Assembly: GCA_038874185.1 (NCBI GenBank)
Contig: JAVZCX010000002.1
Span: forward strand, 1-45,524
Length of the DNA stretch: 45,524 nucleotides
Source: Candidatus Micrarchaeia archaeon
GTDB lineage: Archaea > Micrarchaeota > Micrarchaeia > CABMEP01
Direction of reading: 5' to 3'
The notes under the pieces: model-generated
What the model was told of the DNA's origin: nothing
What the model saw: the letters and a program-made list of their open reading frames with translations, nothing else
Database searches by the model: none
Shown here: one piece after another, positions 1,013 through 45,524 of the stretch
Numbering within the stretch: position 1 is the first letter of the stretch
How the letters are laid out: each line of letters opens with the position of its first letter
Position numbers and translations under genes: made by a program

Positions 1013-2158
1013 ATGCCAATAACTATTTTCCTTGAGGATGGAAAGCTTAAAGTAAAAAATCCTGAAGACTATGAAGCACTAAGAAGATCTTATTACGGAG
1101 AAAAAGGTAAAGGAGAGATAGTTATAACTCCAGAAGAGGCGATGTATCTAATAGAGGTTAGAAACGCTGTTTGCATAGAAAATGGGAAGGAGATCAGCTT
1201 CTCGCAGATAGCAGATAGATTCAATAAGGAAAAGATGTTTGCAGAATACATGACATTTCGCGATTGGAGAGAAAGAGGATTGATAATTAAAAAATACAGG
1301 AAAGAAGGCAAATATGAAAAAAATCCAACTGTAAAATACCCGAGCAAGGAAACGAAATTCCCAAAAATCCAGGCTGAGGCGATTTTCTTCAAAGACGATA
1401 AAATGGCAATATTGGAAAATGAAGAGATTGGAAAGGAGCTTTATAATAATTATTGGATCGGACAATACGGTTCATACAAGGCAGAAGGAAGAGGAAAGTT
1501 CCTAAAGTTAGATAAGTTTGAGACATATTTTCTTGTTAAGAATTGTGGGCTGAAACTGATTAATTTAACTGAAAAGGAATTGGAAAAAATATTGAAAGAA
1601 GAAAACGATTTTGAATCAATGTATAACGTGTATGAAGACTGGAGAATGAATGGATTTGTAGTGAAGACTGGCTTCAAGTTCGGAACCCATTTCAGGATAT
1701 ATTTCCCTGGTGCATTGCCAGGAAAAGGAAAGGATTGGACCCATTCAAAGCATGTTCTCCATGTATTTCCAAGAGAAAAAAGAATGATAATTGCTGAATG
1801 GGCAAGGGCAATAAGGGTTGCGCATGGAGTAAGAAAGACCTTCATACTTGCGATACCTGGAAAGAAAACAAAATCAGAAAAAGGAATGATAAGCTTCTTA
1901 TTATATCATAGAAAAAACAACAATATTGAAACACCTGAAAAGGACAGCCCCTCCTTTGCACTTGTACCTCTTAGTGAAGATGAGATGATCGGAGGGAATG
2001 AACTCGCATCTGCAATAGAAGAAGCAAAGGAGATTGGATTGGATGTCATGCTTGGAATAGTGGATAGGGAGACCTCTGTCACATATTACAGAGTTAAAAG
2101 AATAAACTTGCCTAAAAGCAAGTATGAATACTATGAAATAGAATGGGCACAGCCGTAA
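1013..2158 (+). CDS. endA: tRNA-splicing endonuclease, fused multi-unit form
   Basis: 381-aa ORF. The C-terminal half has the EndA catalytic-unit signature (VYEDWRMNGFVVKTGFKFGTHFRIY, HSKHVLHV, VRKTFILAI, VTYYRVKRI). The N-terminal half has a second, degenerate EndA-like unit (YMTFRDWRERGLIIKK). The length is more than twice the roughly 180-aa single-unit enzyme. Confidence 0.85.
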   Translation: MPITIFLEDGKLKVKNPEDYEALRRSYYGEKGKGEIVITPEEAMYLIEVRNAVCIENGKEISFSQIADRFNKEKMFAEYMTFRDWRERGLIIKKYRKEGKYEKNPTVKYPSKETKFPKIQAEAIFFKDDKMAILENEEIGKELYNNYWIGQYGSYKAEGRGKFLKLDKFETYFLVKNCGLKLINLTEKELEKILKEENDFESMYNVYEDWRMNGFVVKTGFKFGTHFRIYFPGALPGKGKDWTHSKHVLHVFPREKRMIIAEWARAIRVAHGVRKTFILAIPGKKTKSEKGMISFLLYHRKNNNIETPEKDSPSFALVPLSEDEMIGGNELASAIEEAKEIGLDVMLGIVDRETSVTYYRVKRINLPKSKYEYYEIEWAQP

Positions 2159-2195: not shown

Positions 2196-5100
2196 ATGAA
2201 CATTGGAGAAGGAATAAGAAAAGCGCTTGCAAAGATAACTGGAAAAGCGATAATAGATGAAAGTGCTGTTAAATCAATGATAAAAGAGATACAAAGAGCG
2301 CTTATACTTTCAGATGTGAATATAGAGCTAGTGTACAAGCTTTCAAAGCAGATAGAAAATCGTTCTCTTAATGAAAAACCTCCCGCTGGAAGAAGTATGA
2401 GCGAACACATCCATGCAATTGTGTATGAAGAACTCACTAAGATCATGGGGGAGGGAAGAAAGCTCGAGCTAAAACCTCAAAAGATAATGATGTGTGGATT
2501 GTTTGGAAGTGGGAAATGCATACATGGAGATTCGCTAATTCCTCTCTGTGAAGGAAATGTAATGCCAATCAAACAAGTCTATAAACAAATAGAAAAGAAT
2601 GGAAATAAAGAGGTATTAATAGATGGATATATGATACGACCAAATAAGGAATTTGAAGTTTATTCTTTTGATCCAAATACAATGAAAATTAAGAAAACAC
2701 GTATAGAAGCTGCTTGGAAACTTTATAAAGATGAATTAATCGAAGTGAGTTTAGATAATGGGAACGATCATAAGATATTGGTGACGCCAGAACATCCATT
2801 CTATACTTTAGAAGATGGAATGATAAAAGAGGTACGTGCAGAAGATCTGCAGATTGGCCAGTTTGTCGCAGTTCCAAGAAACCTTCCCTTTGATGATAAA
2901 AGATATGTTGACATGTGGGATGAAATAATTACAAATACAAACAAAGACATTGCGATCGTAGATAAAGGGATTGCATTGCAAATTAGAGAACAACTTTTGC
3001 GAAAATATGGAACTCTTATGATTGCATATCAGAAATTGAAAATAAGGGGAGCATATTGCACATTTACTGCCAACCTTAAATGGGGAATAGTCCCTATCGA
3101 ACTATTAAGAAAATGCATCAAATATGGGGTTAAAATAAGTAAGCCGACGACATTGACTGTTGCAAGAATTGGAAGAGCAGGTCCATCTAAAAAAATAAAG
3201 TTTCCATTGATTTTTTCTGAAGAATTCTCTGAATTCTTAGGCTACTTATATGCCGAAGGATACATTAGAAAAGAATATCTAGAAATGACAAATGTGGAGC
3301 CAGAGCTAATCGAAAGATTTAGTTACTTAGTAAAGAAATTATTTGATATCAAACCGCGAATTAAAAGGGACATAAGGCGATCACGACTCAAAAGAGTCAT
3401 AGTAAGTTCTAAACTATTGGTTTATCTACTTAAAATAATATTTAAAATGCCTTTGAAAAATAAAAGCAGAAAAATATCAAGTCCAATACAATTATTGAAA
3501 TCGCCTAATAATATCTTAATTTCATTTATTAAAGCATATTTCGATTCTGACGGCTGGGTTGGCGATAACACAAGAAGTATAGAGATCTCTACAGCGAGCA
3601 AAAGAATGGCGGAAGAACTTCGCTACATGTTGTTAAGATTAAATATATTTAGTGGTGTCTCTAGAAAAACAATAAATAATACAAGCTATTACCGAGTTTA
3701 TATAAGAGGATGGAGCGCAGAAAGATTCTCTAAGATAATCCTTCCGACATCTAAGAAAAAAGAAGAACGACTTAGAAATATGATCGATATTGGGAAAGGT
3801 CAAACGCCTGGGAAATTTGAACTCATCCCAGTTGGCAGACTCTTAAAAGAAACAAGAGAAGGTTGGGGCGCAACGATCGGTGAAATTCAAGAACATGTAA
3901 ATTCGTATGGAAATTACGAAAGGAATGGTGTTATAACAAGAAAATCACTGAAAAAATTCTTGGAATGTCTACCGAAACTAAAAAGAAATTGGATGACATT
4001 GATGAATATTATTTCTAATCATGGAAATAACTATGAAGAAATTATAGAAAATGCAAGAATAAATAAAGCTGTAGCTAATGCGTTTCTCTTCAGACTGTCT
4101 CAACTGGGGTATGTAAAGCAGATTCCAACTGAAAATGGTTTATTATTCATGATAACAACTACTGGTAAAGAGAAAGTAAAGGCTGTTAAAACCTTTGATG
4201 AAAATTATAAGATATTAAGGTTATTATCTGAATCAAATGTTTGTTGGATAAGGGTTGCAGGAAAGAAACATGTCAAAAATAAAGAAAAGTTTGTTTATGA
4301 TTTGACTATCAAAGAATACCACAACTTCATTGCAAATAATATGATCGTTCATAATACTACACAGATAGGCAAAATTGCACATTATCTCAAGAAAAGAGGT
4401 ATGAGCGTTGGTGTTATTGCAGCTGACATGATGAGGCCTGCAGCATATGAACAGCTTGAACAGCTTTCAAAGCAGGTAGGCTGCAACTTTTATGGAAGAA
4501 AAGGGGAAGGCGTCAAAGCTAAGGATGTTGTCAAAGAAGGTATTGAAAAGCTAAAGAATGATGTTATAATAATAGACACCTCTGGAAGAGATGCGCTTGA
4601 TGATGAACTAATAGCTGAATTGAGAGAGATAAATGAAGTTGCAAAGCCTGATGAGAGAATACTTGTAATATCAGCTGACATAGGACAGGTTGCAAAGAAG
4701 CAGGCTGAAGAATTCAATAATGCAGTTGAACTAACTGGAGTTATAATAACAAAAATGGATGGGAGCGGTAAAGGTGGTGGGGCGCTTACAGCATGTGCAA
4801 CTGCAGGCGTGAAAGTTATATTCATAGGTGTAGGAGAAAAAATAGGAGACATAGAGGAATTCAACCCATCTAAATTTGTTGGAAGGCTTTTAGGAGTACC
4901 TGACTTTGAGGCTTTGATTGAAAAAGTAAAGGCTGCAGTACCTGAAGGAATGGAAGAGATGCCTGAAGAATTCACTATTGAAACTTTCTACAAACAATTA
5001 AAGGCTGCAAGAAATATGGGTCCCTTAAAAGGACTATTTGAGACAATGGGAATGGTTAATGTGCCTAAAGAAGTTCTTGACCAAGGAGAGCAAAAAATGG

Positions 5101-5342
5101 ACCAATATGAATCAATTATAGATTCGATGACCAAGGCTGAAAGAAAGAATCCAGATCTGGTTAGAAAAAGTCCTTCAAGAATAGAAAGGATTTCCAAAGG
5201 TTCGGGTGTACCTGCTTCTGTTGTAAAGGAATTTATAACTCAATTTGGCAAGATGAAAAAGATGTATGAACAGTTACAGAAGAATAAAGGTATGCAAAGA
5301 AATCTACAAAGACTATTCAAAGGAAAAGGATTCGGTTTCTAA
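2196..5342 (+). CDS. srp54: Signal recognition particle protein SRP54, interrupted by an intein
   Basis: The N domain is followed by a G-domain P-loop, GLFGSGK / TTQIGKIAHYL, that is split by an insert. Downstream motifs are DTSGR, ITKMDGSGKGG and a Met-rich M domain. The exteins sum to 435 aa, the normal archaeal SRP54 size. Confidence 0.93.
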   Translation: MNIGEGIRKALAKITGKAIIDESAVKSMIKEIQRALILSDVNIELVYKLSKQIENRSLNEKPPAGRSMSEHIHAIVYEELTKIMGEGRKLELKPQKIMMCGLFGSGKCIHGDSLIPLCEGNVMPIKQVYKQIEKNGNKEVLIDGYMIRPNKEFEVYSFDPNTMKIKKTRIEAAWKLYKDELIEVSLDNGNDHKILVTPEHPFYTLEDGMIKEVRAEDLQIGQFVAVPRNLPFDDKRYVDMWDEIITNTNKDIAIVDKGIALQIREQLLRKYGTLMIAYQKLKIRGAYCTFTANLKWGIVPIELLRKCIKYGVKISKPTTLTVARIGRAGPSKKIKFPLIFSEEFSEFLGYLYAEGYIRKEYLEMTNVEPELIERFSYLVKKLFDIKPRIKRDIRRSRLKRVIVSSKLLVYLLKIIFKMPLKNKSRKISSPIQLLKSPNNILISFIKAYFDSDGWVGDNTRSIEISTASKRMAEELRYMLLRLNIFSGVSRKTINNTSYYRVYIRGWSAERFSKIILPTSKKKEERLRNMIDIGKGQTPGKFELIPVGRLLKETREGWGATIGEIQEHVNSYGNYERNGVITRKSLKKFLECLPKLKRNWMTLMNIISNHGNNYEEIIENARINKAVANAFLFRLSQLGYVKQIPTENGLLFMITTTGKEKVKAVKTFDENYKILRLLSESNVCWIRVAGKKHVKNKEKFVYDLTIKEYHNFIANNMIVHNTTQIGKIAHYLKKRGMSVGVIAADMMRPAAYEQLEQLSKQVGCNFYGRKGEGVKAKDVVKEGIEKLKNDVIIIDTSGRDALDDELIAELREINEVAKPDERILVISADIGQVAKKQAEEFNNAVELTGVIITKMDGSGKGGGALTACATAGVKVIFIGVGEKIGDIEEFNPSKFVGRLLGVPDFEALIEKVKAAVPEGMEEMPEEFTIETFYKQLKAARNMGPLKGLFETMGMVNVPKEVLDQGEQKMDQYESIIDSMTKAERKNPDLVRKSPSRIERISKGSGVPASVVKEFITQFGKMKKMYEQLQKNKGMQRNLQRLFKGKGFGF
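2517..4355 (+). mobile_element. Large intein (613 aa) with a LAGLIDADG homing-endonuclease domain, inserted in the SRP54 P-loop
   Basis: Starts with Cys (CIHGDSLIPL, block A) and has TPEHPF (block B TxxH). LAGLIDADG-like motifs are FLGYLYAEGYI and FIKAYFDSDGWV. Ends FVYDLTIKEYHNFIANNMIVHN, followed by a +1 Thr. Removal restores GSGKTT. Confidence 0.9.
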
Positions 5343-21075: not shown

Positions 21076-22092
21076 TTATTTGCTTTTGCCGATGCCTTCT
21101 ATTGAAATGATTTTGCCTTCTATGTTAAACTGTTTTCCAGTAAACAAAGGTATTATCTCCATGCACGATCGCATGTGGCCAGTTATTTTGTTAACTTTTA
21201 TCTTTGATTCTCCACAAGCCAAAGCCATGTATATTAGAATTTGATCTCCCATCCATTGGTCTACCGCCCCTTTGGATTTCACAAGCTTGTTTAATTCTTC
21301 TGCACACGTCTTTGCTATTTTTTCAGCCTTTATTCCTTTCTCACCCAATATGCCAGAACCGATAATTGTGTTTTCATATTCCGCCCACGTGGTTATTGCA
21401 TTACCTGCTGAAGCCGAATTCCTGTTCCTCTTAGTTAGTATTATACCTGGAAATATGCTCCTTATGCTTTGTTCTTCTCTTTCCATAATCTCGTCTGGAA
21501 GATTTGACTGAGAAATTACTCCGTTTATGGATTTTAGATTTAATTTTTCAGTTATAGAGATTGGAGAAATAATGGAAGGCTTGACAAACAGGGTTACTTT
21601 CCCCTGGCCTTTTGGATACCAGCCGAATTCTTCTACCAATATTTCTGCATTTACACCCATCTTTCGAATCATAGGTAAGAATATATTTTCGAAATAATCA
21701 GTCGATGGCGAATGAGATACATGAGTTCCTCCTGTCATATTTATCTTGGAAGGTCTGTCTGCATAAAGCATCACTGGAAGAACAGATTGCATTAACAAAG
21801 GAATCGATCCTGCAGTTCCTATGTCAAATTCATAGTATCCTCCAATTATTCTATTTGGCTTGAAAAAAAGATCTGTAGATCCTACTTTGTTTCCATCTAC
21901 TTCTGCTTTTGTAATCAATGAAAGTGAATTTGTGGATGTTAGGTGCTGAGGTTGTAGTCCTGGCTTTGGCCGCTTCGCTCTTATGTTTTTAATATTGAAC
22001 GGAATCCCTGTAATACAAGAAAGTGCTAATGCAGTTCTTAAAATCTGCCCACCGCCTTCTCCTTTAGAGCCGTCTATTACAATTGGATCCAT
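21076..22092 (-). CDS. rtcA: RNA 3'-terminal phosphate cyclase
   Basis: MDPIVIDGSKGEGGGQILRTALALSCITG is the canonical RtcA N-terminus. I therefore place the start at the ATG at 22092, giving 339 aa. The ORF-track extension to 22308 is hydrophobic and non-homologous. Confidence 0.85.
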   Translation of the reverse strand: MDPIVIDGSKGEGGGQILRTALALSCITGIPFNIKNIRAKRPKPGLQPQHLTSTNSLSLITKAEVDGNKVGSTDLFFKPNRIIGGYYEFDIGTAGSIPLLMQSVLPVMLYADRPSKINMTGGTHVSHSPSTDYFENIFLPMIRKMGVNAEILVEEFGWYPKGQGKVTLFVKPSIISPISITEKLNLKSINGVISQSNLPDEIMEREEQSIRSIFPGIILTKRNRNSASAGNAITTWAEYENTIIGSGILGEKGIKAEKIAKTCAEELNKLVKSKGAVDQWMGDQILIYMALACGESKIKVNKITGHMRSCMEIIPLFTGKQFNIEGKIISIEGIGKSK

Positions 22093-22389
22093 ATAATCCA
22101 CCTTTAGTGAAAAGAAAGAGGCCAGTGCATTCGCACTGGCGAGGCGACCAATTTGAGGCAGATGTACAAAATTCGATGTACCCTCTATTAGTATAATATC
22201 TAAAAGATTTATAAATCTTACTAAAATCATTATTTTTATATAAAAAGTTTTCCTTTTAACTAGGCTTCCTATACTTCCACTAAAAATTAAAAATAAGAAT
22301 AAATTCATTTAACCCTTTCTTCAAGTATTTATGCTCTTTACGTTTGAAATGTTTTAATAGCTTTATACAATAATCTATCTGGGGATTAT

Positions 22390-41832: not shown

Positions 41833-42238
41833 AAATTTGTGAGTAAGGAGATTTAGTATCAGCTGGCTCGCAGCTCGCGTAAGCTCGCTGCTTACACCAC
41901 TGACCTATCAAACGGGTCTGCTACCCGCTCTCACGTCTGCCTAGTTTTGGGCAATCCTTCGACCTTAGATGCTTTCAGGTCTTATGATTTGGCGCGTGGC
42001 TGCCCGGCAATGCTTTTTACAACCGGTATACTAGAGGCGCCCGTCCCATGTTCCTCTCGTACTAGTGGGGCGCTCCCCTCAGGCAGATGCAATCCTAGTA
42101 GATACTACCGTACTGTCTCGCGACGTACTGAACCCAACTCGTGTATCTCTTTAATGGATGAACAAACCAACCCTTGGGCGCTCCTGCACGCCCAGGATGA
42201 GATAGGTCGACAGCGATGTACCAAGCCGCGGGGTCGAT

Positions 42239-42283
42239 ATGTACGCGACAGACTAGCGTTCTAACGAAGACTAAGCTGTCGCA
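42239..42283 (-). other. 45-nt insertion at the tip of 23S helix 89 with BHB geometry (putative mini-intron)
   Basis: RNA sense: CGA-GA-GTAC-[CCT]-GCGACAG...CTGTCGC-GTAC-[ATA]-TCG. A 4-bp central helix is flanked by two 3-nt bulges on opposite strands. Removal gives a loop of the same length as the E. coli GAGUUCAUAUCGAC segment. Confidence 0.6.
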
Positions 42284-42309
42284 GGGTACTCTCGCCCGCG
42301 ACGAGCCTG

Positions 42310-42406
42310 TTTTGGGTCTTCACAGCTACAGAAAAGGACAACAAAAATACGATATGAAATATCGGAGAGGAGTGTATGTCCAGGTGATGTGGTGCAACTG
42401 AGAAGA
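42310..42406 (-). other. About 95-97-nt insertion inside the peptidyl-transferase ring sequence GGGAUAAC of 23S (putative intron; boundaries within about 3 nt)
   Basis: RNA sense: ACCTCGGGGGTAA|TCTTCTCAG...CTGTGAAGACCCAAAA|CAGGCTCG, against E. coli CUCCGGGGAUAACAGGCUG. The flanks pair as GGGT-[AAT]-CTTCTCAG / CTGTGAAG-ACCC. Confidence 0.6.
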
Positions 42407-42533
42407 TTACCCCCGAGGTAACTTGTCTGACAGACTGAGCCCTTAACAAAAGGATTTCAGTGTTCGTTAAGCCCGGCTTTCGCCTCTGCGTCCCACGCTT
42501 TTAAGAACACAGTCAGCCCTGCATTTCTCTTTA

Positions 42534-42694
42534 ACCGTCTTCACCCGACGTTCAGTGGCCGCACGATGATATGCGTCATTCGCTGTTCAACCTCATCACT
42601 AAATCGCACTAGGATTGTGCAATGCGTTTACAACGCATGCACATTCGTCCGCAAGACGAATTGTGCGTCAGAGGTTGTTCATTATATCATCCGC
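42534..42694 (-). other. About 161-nt structured insertion in 23S domain V (intron or expansion segment)
   Basis: Lies between CATGGTG and TAAAGAGAAATGCAGGGCTGACTG, which are contiguous in E. coli (UUAGUG|CAAUGGCAUAAGCCAGCUUGACUG). Its core is closed by the 8-bp stem GATGATAT/ATATCATC (42684..42691 / 42565..42572), with nested helices CAACCTC/GAGGTTG and CGCAC/GTGCG and two hairpins. Confidence 0.5.
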
Positions 42695-45080
42695 CACCAT
42701 GCGGTCATTTCTGACCGGGTTGAGCAGAGCTTTGGGCGCCCTTATTTCCTTATTGAGGGCGTACTGCCCCAGCCAAACTATCCACCTGCCGCTGTCCCCT
42801 TTCAGGTAAGAAACACAAGGATTGAAGAGTGGTGTTACACTTTTGCATCCACCTCAGCCGCAACCGAGGTTTCTACGCTCCCACTTACGCTCTGCAACAA
42901 TCCCTGAATTCCAACAACAGGCTATAGTAAAGTTCTACGGGGTCTTCGTTTCCCACTAGGATTCCTCCGCATATTCACGGAGCAGTGAGTTCACTAGGTC
43001 CCTCGTTGGGACAGTGGGAGAGTCGTTATGCCCTTCATGCAAGTCGCCAATTAAGCGACGAGGTATTACGCTACCTTAAGAGGATCAGAGTTATCCCCGC
43101 TCTTCGCCAGCCCTTAAATCCCTTGGACGAGATGTTCGGGTACTGGTAGTGAGCAGGCATCGGCAACCATACAAGACGTTTCCATTTTGCGGTTACCTGT
43201 GTTTTTGATAAACAGTCGCTCTCCCCTTGTTACTGAGACCTGCACATGCACCTTAAGATACAAGCGCAGGCAACCCTTATACCGAAGATACGGGTCTAAT
43301 TTGCCGAATTCCCTGACGAGAGTTCCCCTAACACGCCTAAGCTTTTTCAGCTAGCCACACTTGTACTAGTTCTAGGTACGGTCATAATGGATCGGATAGG
43401 ACCACTTTTCACGGATCCAAGGTCTCAACAGAACCCCCAAACGAGGGCTATTCGCGCCTTATACTGCTTCTCCTCATAACGAGACTCCACAGCACTATGT
43501 CGCTTGAACAAGGTCTCCCTTGCTCTGCCTAACCTCAGATGTCATGTTCCTACCTTGCGTTGCCGCGTCTACCACTATGGTACAGGAATATTAACCTGTT
43601 TCCCATTCGTCCCCTAGTAATTAGCTGGGGCCTTAGGACCGACTAACTCTTGGCTGACAAACGTTGCCAAGAAAACCGTGGGCTTTCGGCGTACTGGATT
43701 CTCACCAGTATTTGCTGCTACTAACTCCAGGATATTTATTGCAATACAGTCCATTGGAGCTCACGCCCCAACTTCTCTCTGTACCGCACACCTCCCTACC
43801 GGATCACACCTTTCGGGTGTGCCCTTGGGTCTCAGCATCCAGCTTTAGTCCCGTACATTTTCGGCCTGTATATTTCTCCCAACAAAGTTGGTGTCGAACG
43901 GTCCGCTATTACGCGTTGCTTAGACGATGGCTGCTTCTAAGCCTACGTCCCGTCTGTCTAGAAATACACATTCCTTGTGTCTTCACACTTAGCTGGAGTT
44001 TAGGGGCTTTAACCCAAGACTCGTTCGTTCACGTCACGGCTCGTCAGCTTACCCGACGAAACCCGACTCCCTGCTTCTACGATGATTGTAGATTCGGAGT
44101 TTGACAAGAAAGCAGGCTCTTTCGAACCTATTCTTTCTAATCAGTGCTCTACCCCACAATCCATCTCCACAAGGGTCATCCTGAGGGATGCTTCGGGAGG
44201 AACCCGCTATCGCAATGCTCGATTGGACTTTCACCCCTACACAGAAGTCACCTAAGCAGATATACTAGCACTAGTTGCGGCCCTCCACCAGTCGTTAGAC
44301 CGGCTTCAGCCTGCTTCAGTGTAGATCGCAACCGTTTCGGGTCAGATAATAGTGACTAAACGCACTTTCGTACGATGCGCCTCGTTCAGCACTGCGCGCA
44401 ATCGCTTTCGCTTCGCCTCTCGGCTCGCCACTAATATCTACTCCCTGGATCTTGATTCGAGAAGTACGATACGATACTGGTCCAGAACCATCGTACAACA
44501 GCATTGCTGCTGCTTCCTTTTGATTCCTTCGTCCCTTTCATACCGTATCAACCTGTGACCATTCAGTTTCAGGCACTTTTAACACCCATTTCTGGGTTCT
44601 TTTCAACGTTCGCTCACGCTACTAATCCGCTATCGGTCTTGGCTACCTGTTTAGAATTGGATGTTGCTCCACCCAAATTCATACTGGATTACCAACCAGT
44701 ATTACTCTTTTCGTCTCCCTCCTCCACCTTTTGCTTACGGGGCTGTCACCCTGTTTCGCACAGCATTCCAGCTGACTTCAGCTCCAGTAAAGGATGGTTG
44801 AGACGCCCACATCTCCTATACATTACTGCACAGGATTCAGTTTGTTCTCTCCGGCTTTCGCTCGCCGTTACTTACCGGATCCCAATTGGTTTCTCTTCCT
44901 GCGGCTACTAAGATGTTTCAATTCACCGCGTGTTTACCTGTCTCCAGGCACACAGAGATCGACGGATCAATGCTTGCTTGCAGCTACCCGTCGCTTATCG
45001 CAGCTTGCCACGTCTGCTTGAAAACCAAGCCTGGCCATCCCCTGAATGGCGTAGCACTCACAAATACAGTGTTATCACTG

Positions 45081-45288: not shown

Positions 45289-45440
45289 TGCAAAGGAGGC
45301 GCTCTACCATTGAGCTACGAGCCCATGATCTATACTTCAGAATTCAATTACAACATTCCGTGCCTTGCTTGATGCGCTATGATTATAATTCATAACGAAA
45401 TGGAATTGTGCACACTTGAAACCAATTTAATTAATAAATT

Positions 45441-45524
45441 GGAGGTGATCTATCCGCAGGTTCCCCTACGGATACCTTGTTACGACTTAGCCCCCCTCAT
45501 AAAAACTTGGCTCGATACCATCAG
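45441..45524 (-). rRNA. rrs: 16S rRNA gene, 3' end only (continues beyond the window)
   Basis: The reverse complement reads ...AAGTCGTAACAAGGTATCCGTAGGGGAACCTGCGGATAGATCACCTCC, the universal SSU 3' terminus. Confidence 0.92.

What the first reader, a model, noticed from the sequence alone, without database searches (positions are those of the whole stretch)
42239..42283. 45-nt BHB-framed mini-intron candidate at the apex of 23S helix 89
The window has GAGAGTAC, then 45 nt, then ATATCGACCCCGCGG. E. coli has AAGAGUUCAUAUCGACGGCGG (about 2470-2488). The insert is flanked by a GTAC...GTAC repeat. It folds as outer CGA/TCG, central 4-bp GTAC/GTAC, 3-nt bulges CCT and ATA on opposite strands, and an inner 7-bp GCGACAG/CTGTCGC helix. 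This is the geometry recognised by archaeal splicing endonuclease. Cutting after the second bulge nucleotide gives an H89 loop of exactly the consensus length. ORF-less rRNA mini-introns this small are rarely annotated.
Basis: partly seen in the sequence, partly recalled or inferred. Interest (0 to 1): 0.7.

Follow-up and report, generated by a model that had tools for sequence, protein, structure and literature searches.

The report
Mini-intron in archaeal 23S rRNA
The 45-base insert at the tip of helix 89 of this Micrarchaeota 23S rRNA gene is very probably a genuine archaeal splicing-endonuclease (BHB) intron, one of three in the gene and part of a widespread but apparently undescribed family, so it is real but a known kind of element.

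Summary
The 23S gene lies on the minus strand (41834..45066). Intron-less Micrarchaeota 23S genes lack exactly 42283..42239. The RNA folds into a textbook bulge-helix-bulge (BHB) motif: GUAC/GUAC central helix, 3-nt bulges CCU and AUA, and a 7-bp inner helix. Shuffled 23S sequences give 0.007 motifs of this quality per gene.

I found 46 distinct 38-75 nt inserts at the same site in Micrarchaeota genomes and metagenomes. All 46 keep the 4-bp central helix. All seven inner-helix pairs show changes on both sides. One lineage changes the exon strand GUAC to GUUC and the intron strand to GAAC, which indicates pairing rather than a target-site duplication. A Caldarchaeum MAG carries an 849-nt insert at the identical site with the same geometry.

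The window also encodes an ARMAN-2-type (epsilon2) splicing endonuclease at 1013..2158, with the catalytic Tyr/His/Lys conserved. The same 23S gene holds two more insertions: a 159-nt canonical BHB intron, and a 97-nt insert in the peptidyl-transferase loop.

Short hairpin BHB introns in archaeal rRNA are already described, so this is a new member of a known kind. Splicing itself was not observed.

The parts
41834..45066 (-). 23S (LSU) rRNA gene, the host of the intron. It is 3233 nt against a 2987-position model.
   Evidence: Rfam RF02540, 2342.7 bits, full length.
42239..42283 (-). The 45-nt BHB mini-intron (U42283 to U42239), between E. coli positions 2477 and 2478 at the apex of H89.
   Evidence: Absent from seven intron-less Micrarchaeota 23S genes, with the MAFFT gap at exactly these columns. 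BHB fold. 46 variants at the same site.
42290..42294 (-). 5' exon strand of the outer helix (CGAGA). CGA pairs with UCG in the MFE fold, or GA with UC when stacked directly on the central helix.
   Evidence: outer helix 2 bp directly adjacent, or 3 bp with a GA bulge.
42286..42289 (-). Central helix, exon strand: GUAC (E. coli G2472-C2475).
   Evidence: Paired in 36 of 36 distinct aligned variants.
42283..42285 (-). 5' bulge CCU. Predicted cleavage lies between C42284 and U42283.
   Evidence: The first two bulge bases are AC, CC or AU in the 46 variants, as in intron-less loops.
42276..42282 (-). Inner (intron) helix, 5' strand: GCGACAG.
   Evidence: All 7 pairs show changes on both sides across the family.
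42252..42275 (-). Apical irregular hairpin of the intron. It contains the semi-conserved GUCUUCGUU element.
42245..42251 (-). Inner helix, 3' strand: CUGUCGC.
42241..42244 (-). Central helix, intron strand: GUAC.
   Evidence: Changes to GAAC where the exon strand is GUUC (L153), and to GGAU where the exon strand is GUCC (L096).
42238..42240 (-). 3' bulge AUA. Predicted cleavage lies between U42239 and A42238.
   Evidence: The first two bulge bases take 8 different values across the variants, as expected for intron sequence.
42235..42237 (-). 3' exon strand of the outer helix: UCG.
1013..2158 (+). Gene for an epsilon2-type (three-unit) RNA-splicing endonuclease, EndA, of 381 aa. This is the enzyme expected to cut the BHB.
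   Evidence: Pfam tRNA_int_endo 1.5e-27 plus the N-terminal domain. Full-length match to PDB 4FZ2, the ARMAN-2 EndA, at E 7.9e-123. Tyr, His and Lys align with Y236, H251 and K282 (PMC3488258).
42550..42708 (-). Second intron of the same 23S gene: 159 nt with a canonical BHB (ACCCGG UCAG AAA UGACCGC ... GCGGCCA CUGA ACG UCGGGU).
42310..42406 (-). Third insertion: 97 nt inside GGGGGUAA^CAGG (E. coli about 2449-2452). The boundary is ambiguous by up to 2 nt, and only a relaxed BHB is present.

Best explanation
The 45 nt at 42283..42239 (minus strand) are an ORF-less archaeal bulge-helix-bulge intron. It interrupts the apical loop of helix 89 of a Micrarchaeota (DPANN) 23S rRNA gene, between E. 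coli positions 2477 and 2478.

In the primary transcript, the last four exon bases before the site (GUAC) pair with the GUAC near the 3' end of the intron. This 4-bp helix is flanked by two 3-nt bulges on opposite strands (CCU and AUA). It is continued by a 7-bp intron helix on one side and by the H89 stem on the other.

The cell's splicing endonuclease, an epsilon2-type EndA encoded in the same window, should cut after the second nucleotide of each bulge. An RtcB-type ligase should then join the exons to give GAGAGUACCC-AUCGAC and circularise the 45-nt intron. The result is an H89 loop of normal length.

Shown here: the insert, the motif, its conservation and covariation across 46 variants, and the presence of the enzyme gene. 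Inferred: cleavage, ligation, and the exact cut positions.

The intron carries no homing endonuclease. In the window's clade it looks vertically inherited.
For: (1) The insert is absent at exactly these columns from seven intron-less Micrarchaeota 23S genes and from more than 100 other archaeal 23S genes that share the same 3' H89 strand.

(2) The MFE fold gives a canonical BHB, z = -3.9. A motif of equal quality is expected 0.007 times per shuffled 23S.

(3) There are 46 distinct inserts of 38-75 nt at the same site. All 46 have a 4-bp central helix, and 35 of 46 fit the strict motif.

(4) On 36 distinct aligned junction sequences, the central helix is 100% paired. All 7 inner pairs show double changes. 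88.9% of cells are paired, against 34-48% when partners are slid. 0 of 500 shuffles reach the observed percentage paired, double-change cell count or covariation score.

(5) L153 has exon GUUC with intron GAAC, and L096 has exon GUCC with intron GGAU. This is complementarity, not a direct repeat.

(6) L096, a Caldarchaeum MAG, has an 849-nt insert at the same phosphodiester bond. The BHB rule there restores exactly the intron-less Aigarchaeota sequence GAGAGUCCCC|AUCGAC.

(7) The predicted exonic bulge dinucleotide takes 3 values (AC, CC, AU), all seen in intron-less loops. The predicted intronic dinucleotide takes 8 values.

(8) The EndA gene lies in the window with its catalytic triad conserved, and is closest to the ARMAN-2 enzyme. 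That enzyme has been shown to cut strict and relaxed BHBs (PMC3488258, PMC3239211).

(9) The same gene has a second canonical BHB intron, and an insertion inside GGGGUAA^CAGG of the peptidyl-transferase loop. By inference, the latter could hardly be tolerated in mature rRNA.
Against: No RNA data were available: no spliced junction, no circular intron and no cleavage assay. The outer helix directly next to the central helix is only 2 bp (GA/UC), or 3 bp with a 2-nt GA bulge.

The predicted ligated loop (..GUACCC AUCGAC) differs by two bases from the loop of intron-less Micrarchaeota (..GUACAU or ..GUACAC AUCGAC). Because of the palindromic GUAC repeat, the DNA alone cannot fix the boundaries.

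No intron-less member of the window's own close clade was retrieved. The metagenome pattern could only find insert-bearing genes. Dispensability is therefore shown only across more distant Micrarchaeota, about 70% 23S identity in a rough global alignment. No RtcB gene lies in the window.
Confidence: 0.88

Rival explanations
1. Expansion segment: the 45 nt stay in the mature 23S rRNA as a lineage-specific extension of helix 89.
For: The insert is a stable hairpin that continues the H89 stem. It is fixed in the window's clade and seems vertically inherited there. No RNA data exclude retention.
Against: An extension has no reason to keep a 3-nt / 4-bp / 3-nt geometry with one strand supplied by the exon. 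Yet all 46 variants keep it while the interior varies in sequence and length. The same bond carries an 849-nt insert in Caldarchaeum. Many Micrarchaeota lack the insert. To my knowledge (recall, not tested), H89 runs from the peptidyl-transferase centre toward the factor-binding site, and no expansion segment is described there in any domain.
Confidence: 0.05
2. Excised spacer without religation: EndA cuts at the two bulges but the exons are not joined. The mature 23S would then be fragmented at the H89 loop, as with bacterial intervening sequences.
For: The BHB predicts cleavage, not ligation. Archaeal BHB motifs are also used for rRNA end processing without exon joining (PMC7714728). No ligase gene lies in the window.
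Against: With three such sites, the 23S would be in four pieces, with breaks in the peptidyl-transferase loop. Archaeal rRNA introns studied so far are ligated, by established knowledge of RtcB-dependent splicing (not tested here). The restored loop has exactly the consensus length, which matters only if the ends are rejoined.
Confidence: 0.05
3. DNA-level insertion of a small mobile hairpin element (MITE-like) that created a GTAC target-site duplication, with no RNA splicing.
For: The insert is flanked by GTAC...GTAC.
Against: GTAC is its own reverse complement, so it does not discriminate between the models. Where the exon tetranucleotide differs, the second copy is the complement and not a repeat: GUUC with GAAC in L153, and GUCC with GGAU in L096. 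Eight variants have GUAU, which keeps a G.U pair. An unspliced insertion in a single-copy rRNA gene would have to be tolerated by the ribosome.
Confidence: 0.01
4. Group I or other self-splicing intron.
For: Group I introns do occur in Micrarchaeota LSU genes, at position 2593 (PMC6125680).
Against: 45 nt is far too short for a group I core. No Rfam intron family was found in the window at gathering threshold. Nothing was found in the insert at E up to 10 except one chance hit.
Confidence: 0.01

Closest known systems
Short (<50 nt) hairpin-forming BHB introns of Thermoproteales 16S rRNA genes (Jay & Inskeep 2015, PMC4496867)
   Same: Both are ORF-less and consist of little more than a hairpin that maintains the BHB motif at the exon-intron junctions. 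Both sit at conserved rRNA sites that can also carry endonuclease-encoding introns, and both are sporadic among relatives.
   Different: The host gene is 23S, not 16S. The host phylum is Micrarchaeota (DPANN, low G+C), not thermophilic Crenarchaeota. The site is the H89 apex, E. coli 2477/2478. I found no paper describing this site.
ORF-containing archaeal rRNA introns (Desulfurococcus, Pyrobaculum and Aeropyrum type, recalled from knowledge), and the 849-nt insert of the Caldarchaeum subterraneum MAG in locus L096
   Same: L096 uses the same insertion bond and the same BHB framing: a 4-bp helix from exon bases 2472-2475, 3-nt bulges, and a UCG outer strand.
   Different: The window's intron has no coding capacity. 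The 264-aa ORF in L096 gave no Pfam hit at E up to 1e-3, so I could not show that it is a homing endonuclease.
Archaeal pre-tRNA BHB introns cut by the ARMAN-2 epsilon2 EndA (PMC3239211, PMC3488258, PMC12397907)
   Same: The motif and the presumed enzyme are the same. The window's EndA aligns over its full length with the crystallised ARMAN-2 protein, with the catalytic residues conserved.
   Different: The substrate is rRNA rather than tRNA. In the passages and term hits I checked, those papers assay pre-tRNA or synthetic BHB RNA, not rRNA.
Group I introns in Micrarchaeota and other DPANN LSU rRNA genes at positions 1923, 1931, 2500 and 2593 (Nawrocki et al. 2018, PMC6125680)
   Same: Both interrupt domain IV/V of 23S in the same phyla. 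[quoted passage not shown]
   Different: The splicing mechanism (protein enzyme versus ribozyme), the size and the site all differ.

Membership tests
Archaeal BHB (splicing-endonuclease-dependent) intron | Two 3-nt bulges on opposite strands, separated by a 4-bp helix and flanked by helices (hBHBh'). The 5' exon end and the intron 3' end form the central helix. | tested here: met
   MFE fold. Strict scan finds GA|GUAC|CCU|GCGACAG...CUGUCGC|GUAC|AUA|UC. The outer helix is short: 2 bp adjacent, or 3 bp with a GA bulge.
Archaeal BHB (splicing-endonuclease-dependent) intron | Cutting within the bulges and joining the exons restores the uninterrupted gene at its normal length. | tested here: met
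   GAGAGUACCC|AUCGAC has the same length as intron-less homologues. The same rule in L096 restores the exact intron-less Aigarchaeota sequence.
Archaeal BHB (splicing-endonuclease-dependent) intron | The motif, not the sequence, is conserved among homologous introns (covariation). | tested here: met
   All 46 variants have a 4-bp central helix. Double changes occur in all 7 inner pairs and in 1 central pair; slid controls give 34-48% paired against 88.9%.
Archaeal BHB (splicing-endonuclease-dependent) intron | Optional: present in some homologous genes and absent from others. | tested here: met
   Seven Micrarchaeota species representatives lack it and five carry an insert at this site (L015, L081, L099 and L047, plus the window). 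No intron-less member of the window's own close clade was sampled.
Archaeal BHB (splicing-endonuclease-dependent) intron | The host encodes a splicing endonuclease (EndA). | tested here: met
   ORF 1013..2158: Pfam PF01974 and PF02778. PDB 4FZ2 at E 7.9e-123, with Tyr/His/Lys conserved.
Archaeal BHB (splicing-endonuclease-dependent) intron | The host encodes an RtcB-type ligase to join the exons. | not tested
   No RtcB was seen among the ORFs scanned in the window. Not all ORFs were scanned, and the rest of the genome is not available. An RtcA cyclase lies at 21076..22308, but it is not the ligase.
Archaeal BHB (splicing-endonuclease-dependent) intron | The intron is absent from mature RNA, and a circular or linear excised intron is detectable. 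| not testable with these tools
   No RNA data were available.
rRNA expansion segment | Retained in mature rRNA, with no requirement for splice-site geometry. | tested here: inconclusive
   Retention cannot be tested. The strict conservation of BHB geometry is unexplained under this model.
Group I intron | Conserved catalytic core (P3-P8), typically more than 200 nt, detectable with the Rfam group I intron model (Intron_gpI). | tested here: not met
   The insert is 45 nt. No Rfam hit at gathering threshold in the window, and nothing in the insert at E up to 10 except one chance hit.
Transposable element with target-site duplication | The flanking repeat is a direct copy of the target, whatever its sequence. 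| tested here: not met
   L153 has GUUC with GAAC, and L096 has GUCC with GGAU. These are complementary, not repeated.

The most novel reading that the evidence does not exclude
The H89 mini-intron may be more than a decaying relic. It is an endonuclease-free intron family held at one bond of the 23S gene across a wide span of Micrarchaeota. About two thirds of the variants share an internal element (consensus about AGUCUUCGUU). In the window's clade the intron tracks host divergence. It could be retained because it does something. One possibility is that it delays closure of H89 and the adjacent peptidyl-transferase loop until EndA acts, as an assembly checkpoint coupled to the neighbouring introns. 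Another is that it gives rise to a stable circular RNA.
Probability: 0.1. Interest if true: 0.6.

Novelty: new member of a known kind. Interest (0 to 1): 0.35.

Why it matters
For annotation, this 23S gene, and those of many Micrarchaeota, should be annotated with three introns. Otherwise rRNA length, alignments, primer or probe design and phylogenies around the peptidyl-transferase region are distorted.

For biology, it extends the known substrates of the epsilon2-type splicing endonuclease of ultrasmall archaea from tRNA to rRNA. The enzyme gene and three candidate substrates lie on one 45-kb piece of DNA, which makes an in vitro test straightforward.

It also documents a recurrent intron site at E. 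coli 2477/2478. That site is used by at least four or five unrelated intron sequences in two archaeal phyla. This bears on how endonuclease-free mini-introns arise and persist.

It does not change the current picture of archaeal splicing.

Tried and rejected
- An exact-protein look-up of the neighbouring gene, to find the source contig, found nothing on record.
- A loose BHB scan (G.U allowed, inner helix at least 3 bp, length up to 250) gave 2171 hits on one strand. It is useless as evidence and was replaced by a scan at the observed stringency with shuffles.
- A Mantel-type test of intron distance against host distance over all loci was weak (Spearman 0.125, p about 0.08). This is probably because the 400 nt downstream contain further introns in some loci (host distances reach 0.58). 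Only the monotonic trend among the window's nearest relatives is used.
- The 264-aa ORF of the Caldarchaeum insert gave no Pfam hit, so I do not call it a homing endonuclease.
- An Rfam search of the insert at E up to 10 found only a chance lncRNA hit.
- The target-site-duplication reading of GTAC...GTAC was rejected on L153 and L096.
- For the 97-nt insertion, none of the canonical BHB registers I tried by hand on the folds restores GGGGGUAACAGG. Each leaves 1-2 extra A. I call its motif relaxed only.
- The statistics for the internal GUCUUCGUU-like element (31 of 46 against 2 in shuffles) are post hoc. They are confounded by common descent and are not used as evidence of function.

Full report
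**Context.** Rfam places a complete archaeal LSU rRNA on the minus strand at 41834..45066. It is 3233 nt against a 2987-position model. The 3' end of a 16S gene lies upstream at 45440..45524. The surrounding genome has about 34% G+C and the rRNA about 50%. It encodes typical archaeal proteins: family B DNA polymerase, FttA/aCPSF1, and SRP54 with an intein. The finding must therefore be read on the reverse complement.

**The observation.** On the minus strand, GAGAGTAC (42293..42286) is followed by 45 nt and then ATATCGACCCCGCGG, as stated.
- CGA/UCG, with GA unpaired
- GUAC/GUAC
- a CCU bulge on the 5' strand and an AUA bulge on the 3' strand
- GCGACAG/CUGUCGC, capped by an irregular hairpin

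The energy is -42.5 kcal/mol, z = -3.9, and 0 of 200 shuffles fold as well.

The strand order is outer helix, central helix, bulge, inner helix on the 5' side. On the 3' side it is inner helix, central helix, bulge, outer helix. This is the handedness of the archaeal and eukaryotic splicing motif, in which the end of the 5' exon pairs with the end of the intron. I take this from the established pre-tRNA anticodon-intron pairing, which is my knowledge and not a tool result.

**Chance.** A permissive BHB pattern is very common (2171 hits on one strand). At the quality seen here, the 23S sense strand has a single hit, which is this one. 300 shuffles of the 23S average 0.007 hits.

**Is it an insertion?** The Rfam alignment has 164 nt where the model has 23, between model positions 2558 and 2582. 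More than the 45 nt is therefore extra in this region.

A scan of one genome per species for the 3' strand of H89 (ATCGACCCCGCGGCTTGGTAC) returned 120 loci. Most are Bathyarchaeia and Nitrososphaerota, and 13 are Micrarchaeota. The window belongs with the Micrarchaeota. It shares their unusual ACAUCGCUGUCG sequence just downstream. It is about 97% identical in 23S to L015 (MAG SKW71) and L099.

Seven Micrarchaeota (L007, L021, L036, L054, L061, L076, L080) read GAGAGTACAT|ATCGACC or GAGAGTACAC|ATCGACC with no insert. MAFFT against them leaves a 45-nt gap at exactly 42283..42239. It also leaves gaps of 97 nt (42408..42312 as placed by MAFFT) and 159 nt (42707..42549). Subtracting 301 nt leaves about 2932 nt, a normal archaeal 23S length.

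**The family at this site.** L015, L081 and L099 carry the same intron with small differences. L081 has A to G in the inner helix, giving a G.U pair.

A metagenome scan was run for any 30-60 nt between GAGAGTNC and ATCGACCCCGCGG. It found 52 loci with 42 distinct sequences. Together with the genome loci, there are 46 distinct inserts of 38-75 nt.
- All 46 have a 4-bp central helix.
- 35 fit the strict motif: a 3-nt bulge followed directly by at least 3 bp of inner helix on both strands.
- The other 11 deviate by a 2-nt bulge or a small extra bulge next to the central helix.

The interiors fall into several apparently unrelated classes: GCGAC...GUCGC, AAACUUU...AAAGUUU, AGCUUUUUCC...GGAAAAACU and CAUUGGUUGC...

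I aligned the two junction regions, 27 and 29 nt with the variable middle removed. The 36 rows are distinct and ungapped (A1), and I counted pairs on them:
- The central helix is paired in 36 of 36 rows: 8 have G.U and 1 has a double change.
- Each of the seven inner pairs has changes on both sides.
- 88.9% of cells are paired, against 34-48% when partners are slid by 1-3 columns.
- 0 of 500 shuffles reach the observed percentage paired, double-change cell count or covariation score.

The exon positions are fixed by the search pattern, so only the central and inner helices are informative.

**Pairing or repeat?** GTAC is palindromic, so the window alone cannot distinguish a target-site duplication from a helix. 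L153 can: its exon reads GUUC and its intron reads GAAC. In L096 the exon is GUCC and the intron is GGAU. These are complements, not copies.

**The same bond in another phylum.** L096, a Caldarchaeum subterraneum MAG, has 849 nt between GAGAGUCCCC and AUCGACC. Co-folding its two junctions gives GUCC/GGAU, bulges CCA and AAA, and UCG/CGA with GA unpaired, which is the window's geometry. The BHB rule there restores GAGAGUCCCC|AUCGAC. That is the sequence of the intron-less Aigarchaeota and Bathyarchaeia. This is independent support for both the site and the cutting rule.

**Position.** I counted from landmarks of the E. coli sequence: D2449, A2451, pseudouridine 2457, Cm2498, m2A2503 and pseudouridine 2504. 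These are from my knowledge and are consistent with the Rfam consensus. The intron lies between 2477 and 2478, and the exon strand of the central helix is 2472-2475.

**Boundaries.** The predicted exonic first two bulge bases are AC (34), CC (11) or AU (1). These values are also seen in intron-less loops. The predicted intronic last two bases take eight values. This favours the BHB-rule boundaries over the alternative GUAC|...GUAC|AU. It is not proof.

**The enzyme.** The ORF at 1013..2158 (381 aa) has the tRNA-intron endonuclease catalytic and N-terminal domains. It aligns over residues 11-381 with PDB 4FZ2 at E 7.9e-123. That entry is the epsilon2 three-unit EndA of ARMAN-2, Candidatus Micrarchaeum acidiphilum (PMC3488258). 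The residues mutated in that paper (Y236, H251, K282) are Tyr, His and Lys in the window protein. That enzyme cuts both strict and relaxed BHB substrates (PMC3239211, PMC3488258). The ligase (RtcB) was not seen in the ORFs I scanned.

**Neighbouring insertions.** The 159-nt insertion is a second canonical BHB intron: ACCCGG UCAG AAA UGACCGC ... GCGGCCA CUGA ACG UCGGGU. The BHB rule gives the intron as 42708..42550 and the loop as UCAGAAG. That matches in length the UCAGAAA of intron-less L007. Its inner helix covaries among relatives, for example UGGCUAA with UUUAGUCA.

The 97-nt insertion splits GGGGGUAA^CAGG, the G2447-C2452 core of the peptidyl-transferase loop. Only a relaxed motif is visible: GGG/CCC of 3 bp with a UAA bulge. 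Close relatives (L123, L127, L144, L168) have the H89 intron but an intact 2449 region, as do 38 of 56 loci overall. The two insertions are therefore independent.

**Inheritance.** Among the window's nearest relatives, intron divergence rises with host rRNA divergence. Host distances of 0.002-0.17 correspond to intron distances of 0-0.25. This suggests vertical descent and faster evolution of the intron. The global correlation is weak and confounded.

**What is known.** Short (<50 nt) hairpin BHB introns are a described class in Thermoproteales 16S genes, sometimes next to endonuclease-encoding introns (PMC4496867). Introns in Micrarchaeota 16S genes (PMC5498576) and group I introns in their LSU genes at 2593 (PMC6125680) are reported. 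Six full-text searches found nothing on an H89 or 2477 site, or on BHB introns in Micrarchaeota 23S. The library is incomplete, so this is absence of evidence only.

**Verdict.** The element is a new member, and a sizeable undescribed family, of a well-known kind. The main open point is experimental: whether, and exactly where, the RNA is cut and rejoined.

Noticed in passing
window 42550..42708 (-): A second canonical BHB intron of 159 nt lies in a domain V hairpin loop of the same 23S gene: ACCCGG UCAG AAA UGACCGC ... GCGGCCA CUGA ACG UCGGGU. The spliced loop UCAGAAG has the same length as the loop in intron-less Micrarchaeota. The inner helix covaries among relatives.
   Followed up: partly
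window 42621..42666 (-): 46 nt inside that 159-nt intron are present in the window but absent from all 11 relatives in which this site could be read, among them the closest ones, L015, L081 and L099. They are flanked by a 7-nt direct repeat, GCACAAU, and fold as two small hairpins. This is a recent indel within an intron.
   Followed up: partly
window 42310..42406 (-), boundary +/-2: A 97-nt insertion lies inside GGGGGUAA^CAGG (E. coli about 2449-2452, the peptidyl-transferase loop). Only a relaxed BHB is present: GGG/CCC of 3 bp with a UAA bulge. The canonical registers I tried by hand leave 1-2 extra A. Aigarchaeota loci L040 and L105 have larger inserts at the same place, and close relatives L123, L127, L144 and L168 lack it.
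   Followed up: partly
window 42205..42222 (-); loci L007, L021, L036, L047, L054, L061, L076, L080, L081, L099: All Micrarchaeota 23S genes retrieved read ACAUCGCUGUCG where other archaea, and the Rfam consensus, read ACCUCGAUGUCG. By my E. coli numbering this is C2499A and A2503C, at positions usually regarded as near-universal. The window's clade additionally has GUCGACC instead of GUCGGCU.
   Followed up: no
window 1013..2158 (+): An epsilon2-type three-unit splicing endonuclease gene, full-length homologue of the crystallised ARMAN-2 EndA, lies on the same 45-kb piece as its three candidate rRNA substrates.
   Followed up: yes
window 2196..5342 (+): The SRP54 gene is interrupted by an intein with a LAGLIDADG endonuclease domain: Pfam Intein_splicing 8.2e-27 and LAGLIDADG_3 5.7e-22, between the N and GTPase domains.
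   Followed up: no
window 21076..22308 (-): An RNA 3'-terminal phosphate cyclase (RtcA) gene (Pfam RTC 6.1e-79). It is related to RNA end chemistry but is not the splicing ligase.
   Followed up: no
window 42252..42275 (-) and loci L121-L172: About two thirds of the H89 mini-introns share an internal element near the hairpin apex, roughly AGUCUUCGUU or GUCNUNCGUUU. It occurs in 31 of 46 variants, against about 2 in shuffles. The pattern is post hoc and confounded by descent. Its function is unknown.
   Followed up: partly
L096 (CALHAG010000016.1), the 849-nt insert before ATCGACC: The Caldarchaeum insert at the same H89 bond contains a 264-aa ORF that has no Pfam hit at E up to 1e-3. If it is a homing endonuclease, it is not recognisable with Pfam.
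   Followed up: partly
L066 (JBIOKC010000246.1): A 2.8-kb contig binned as a Thermodesulfobacteriota bacterium carries an archaeal 23S segment identical in this region to Bathyarchaeia sequences. This is probably a binning error.
   Followed up: no
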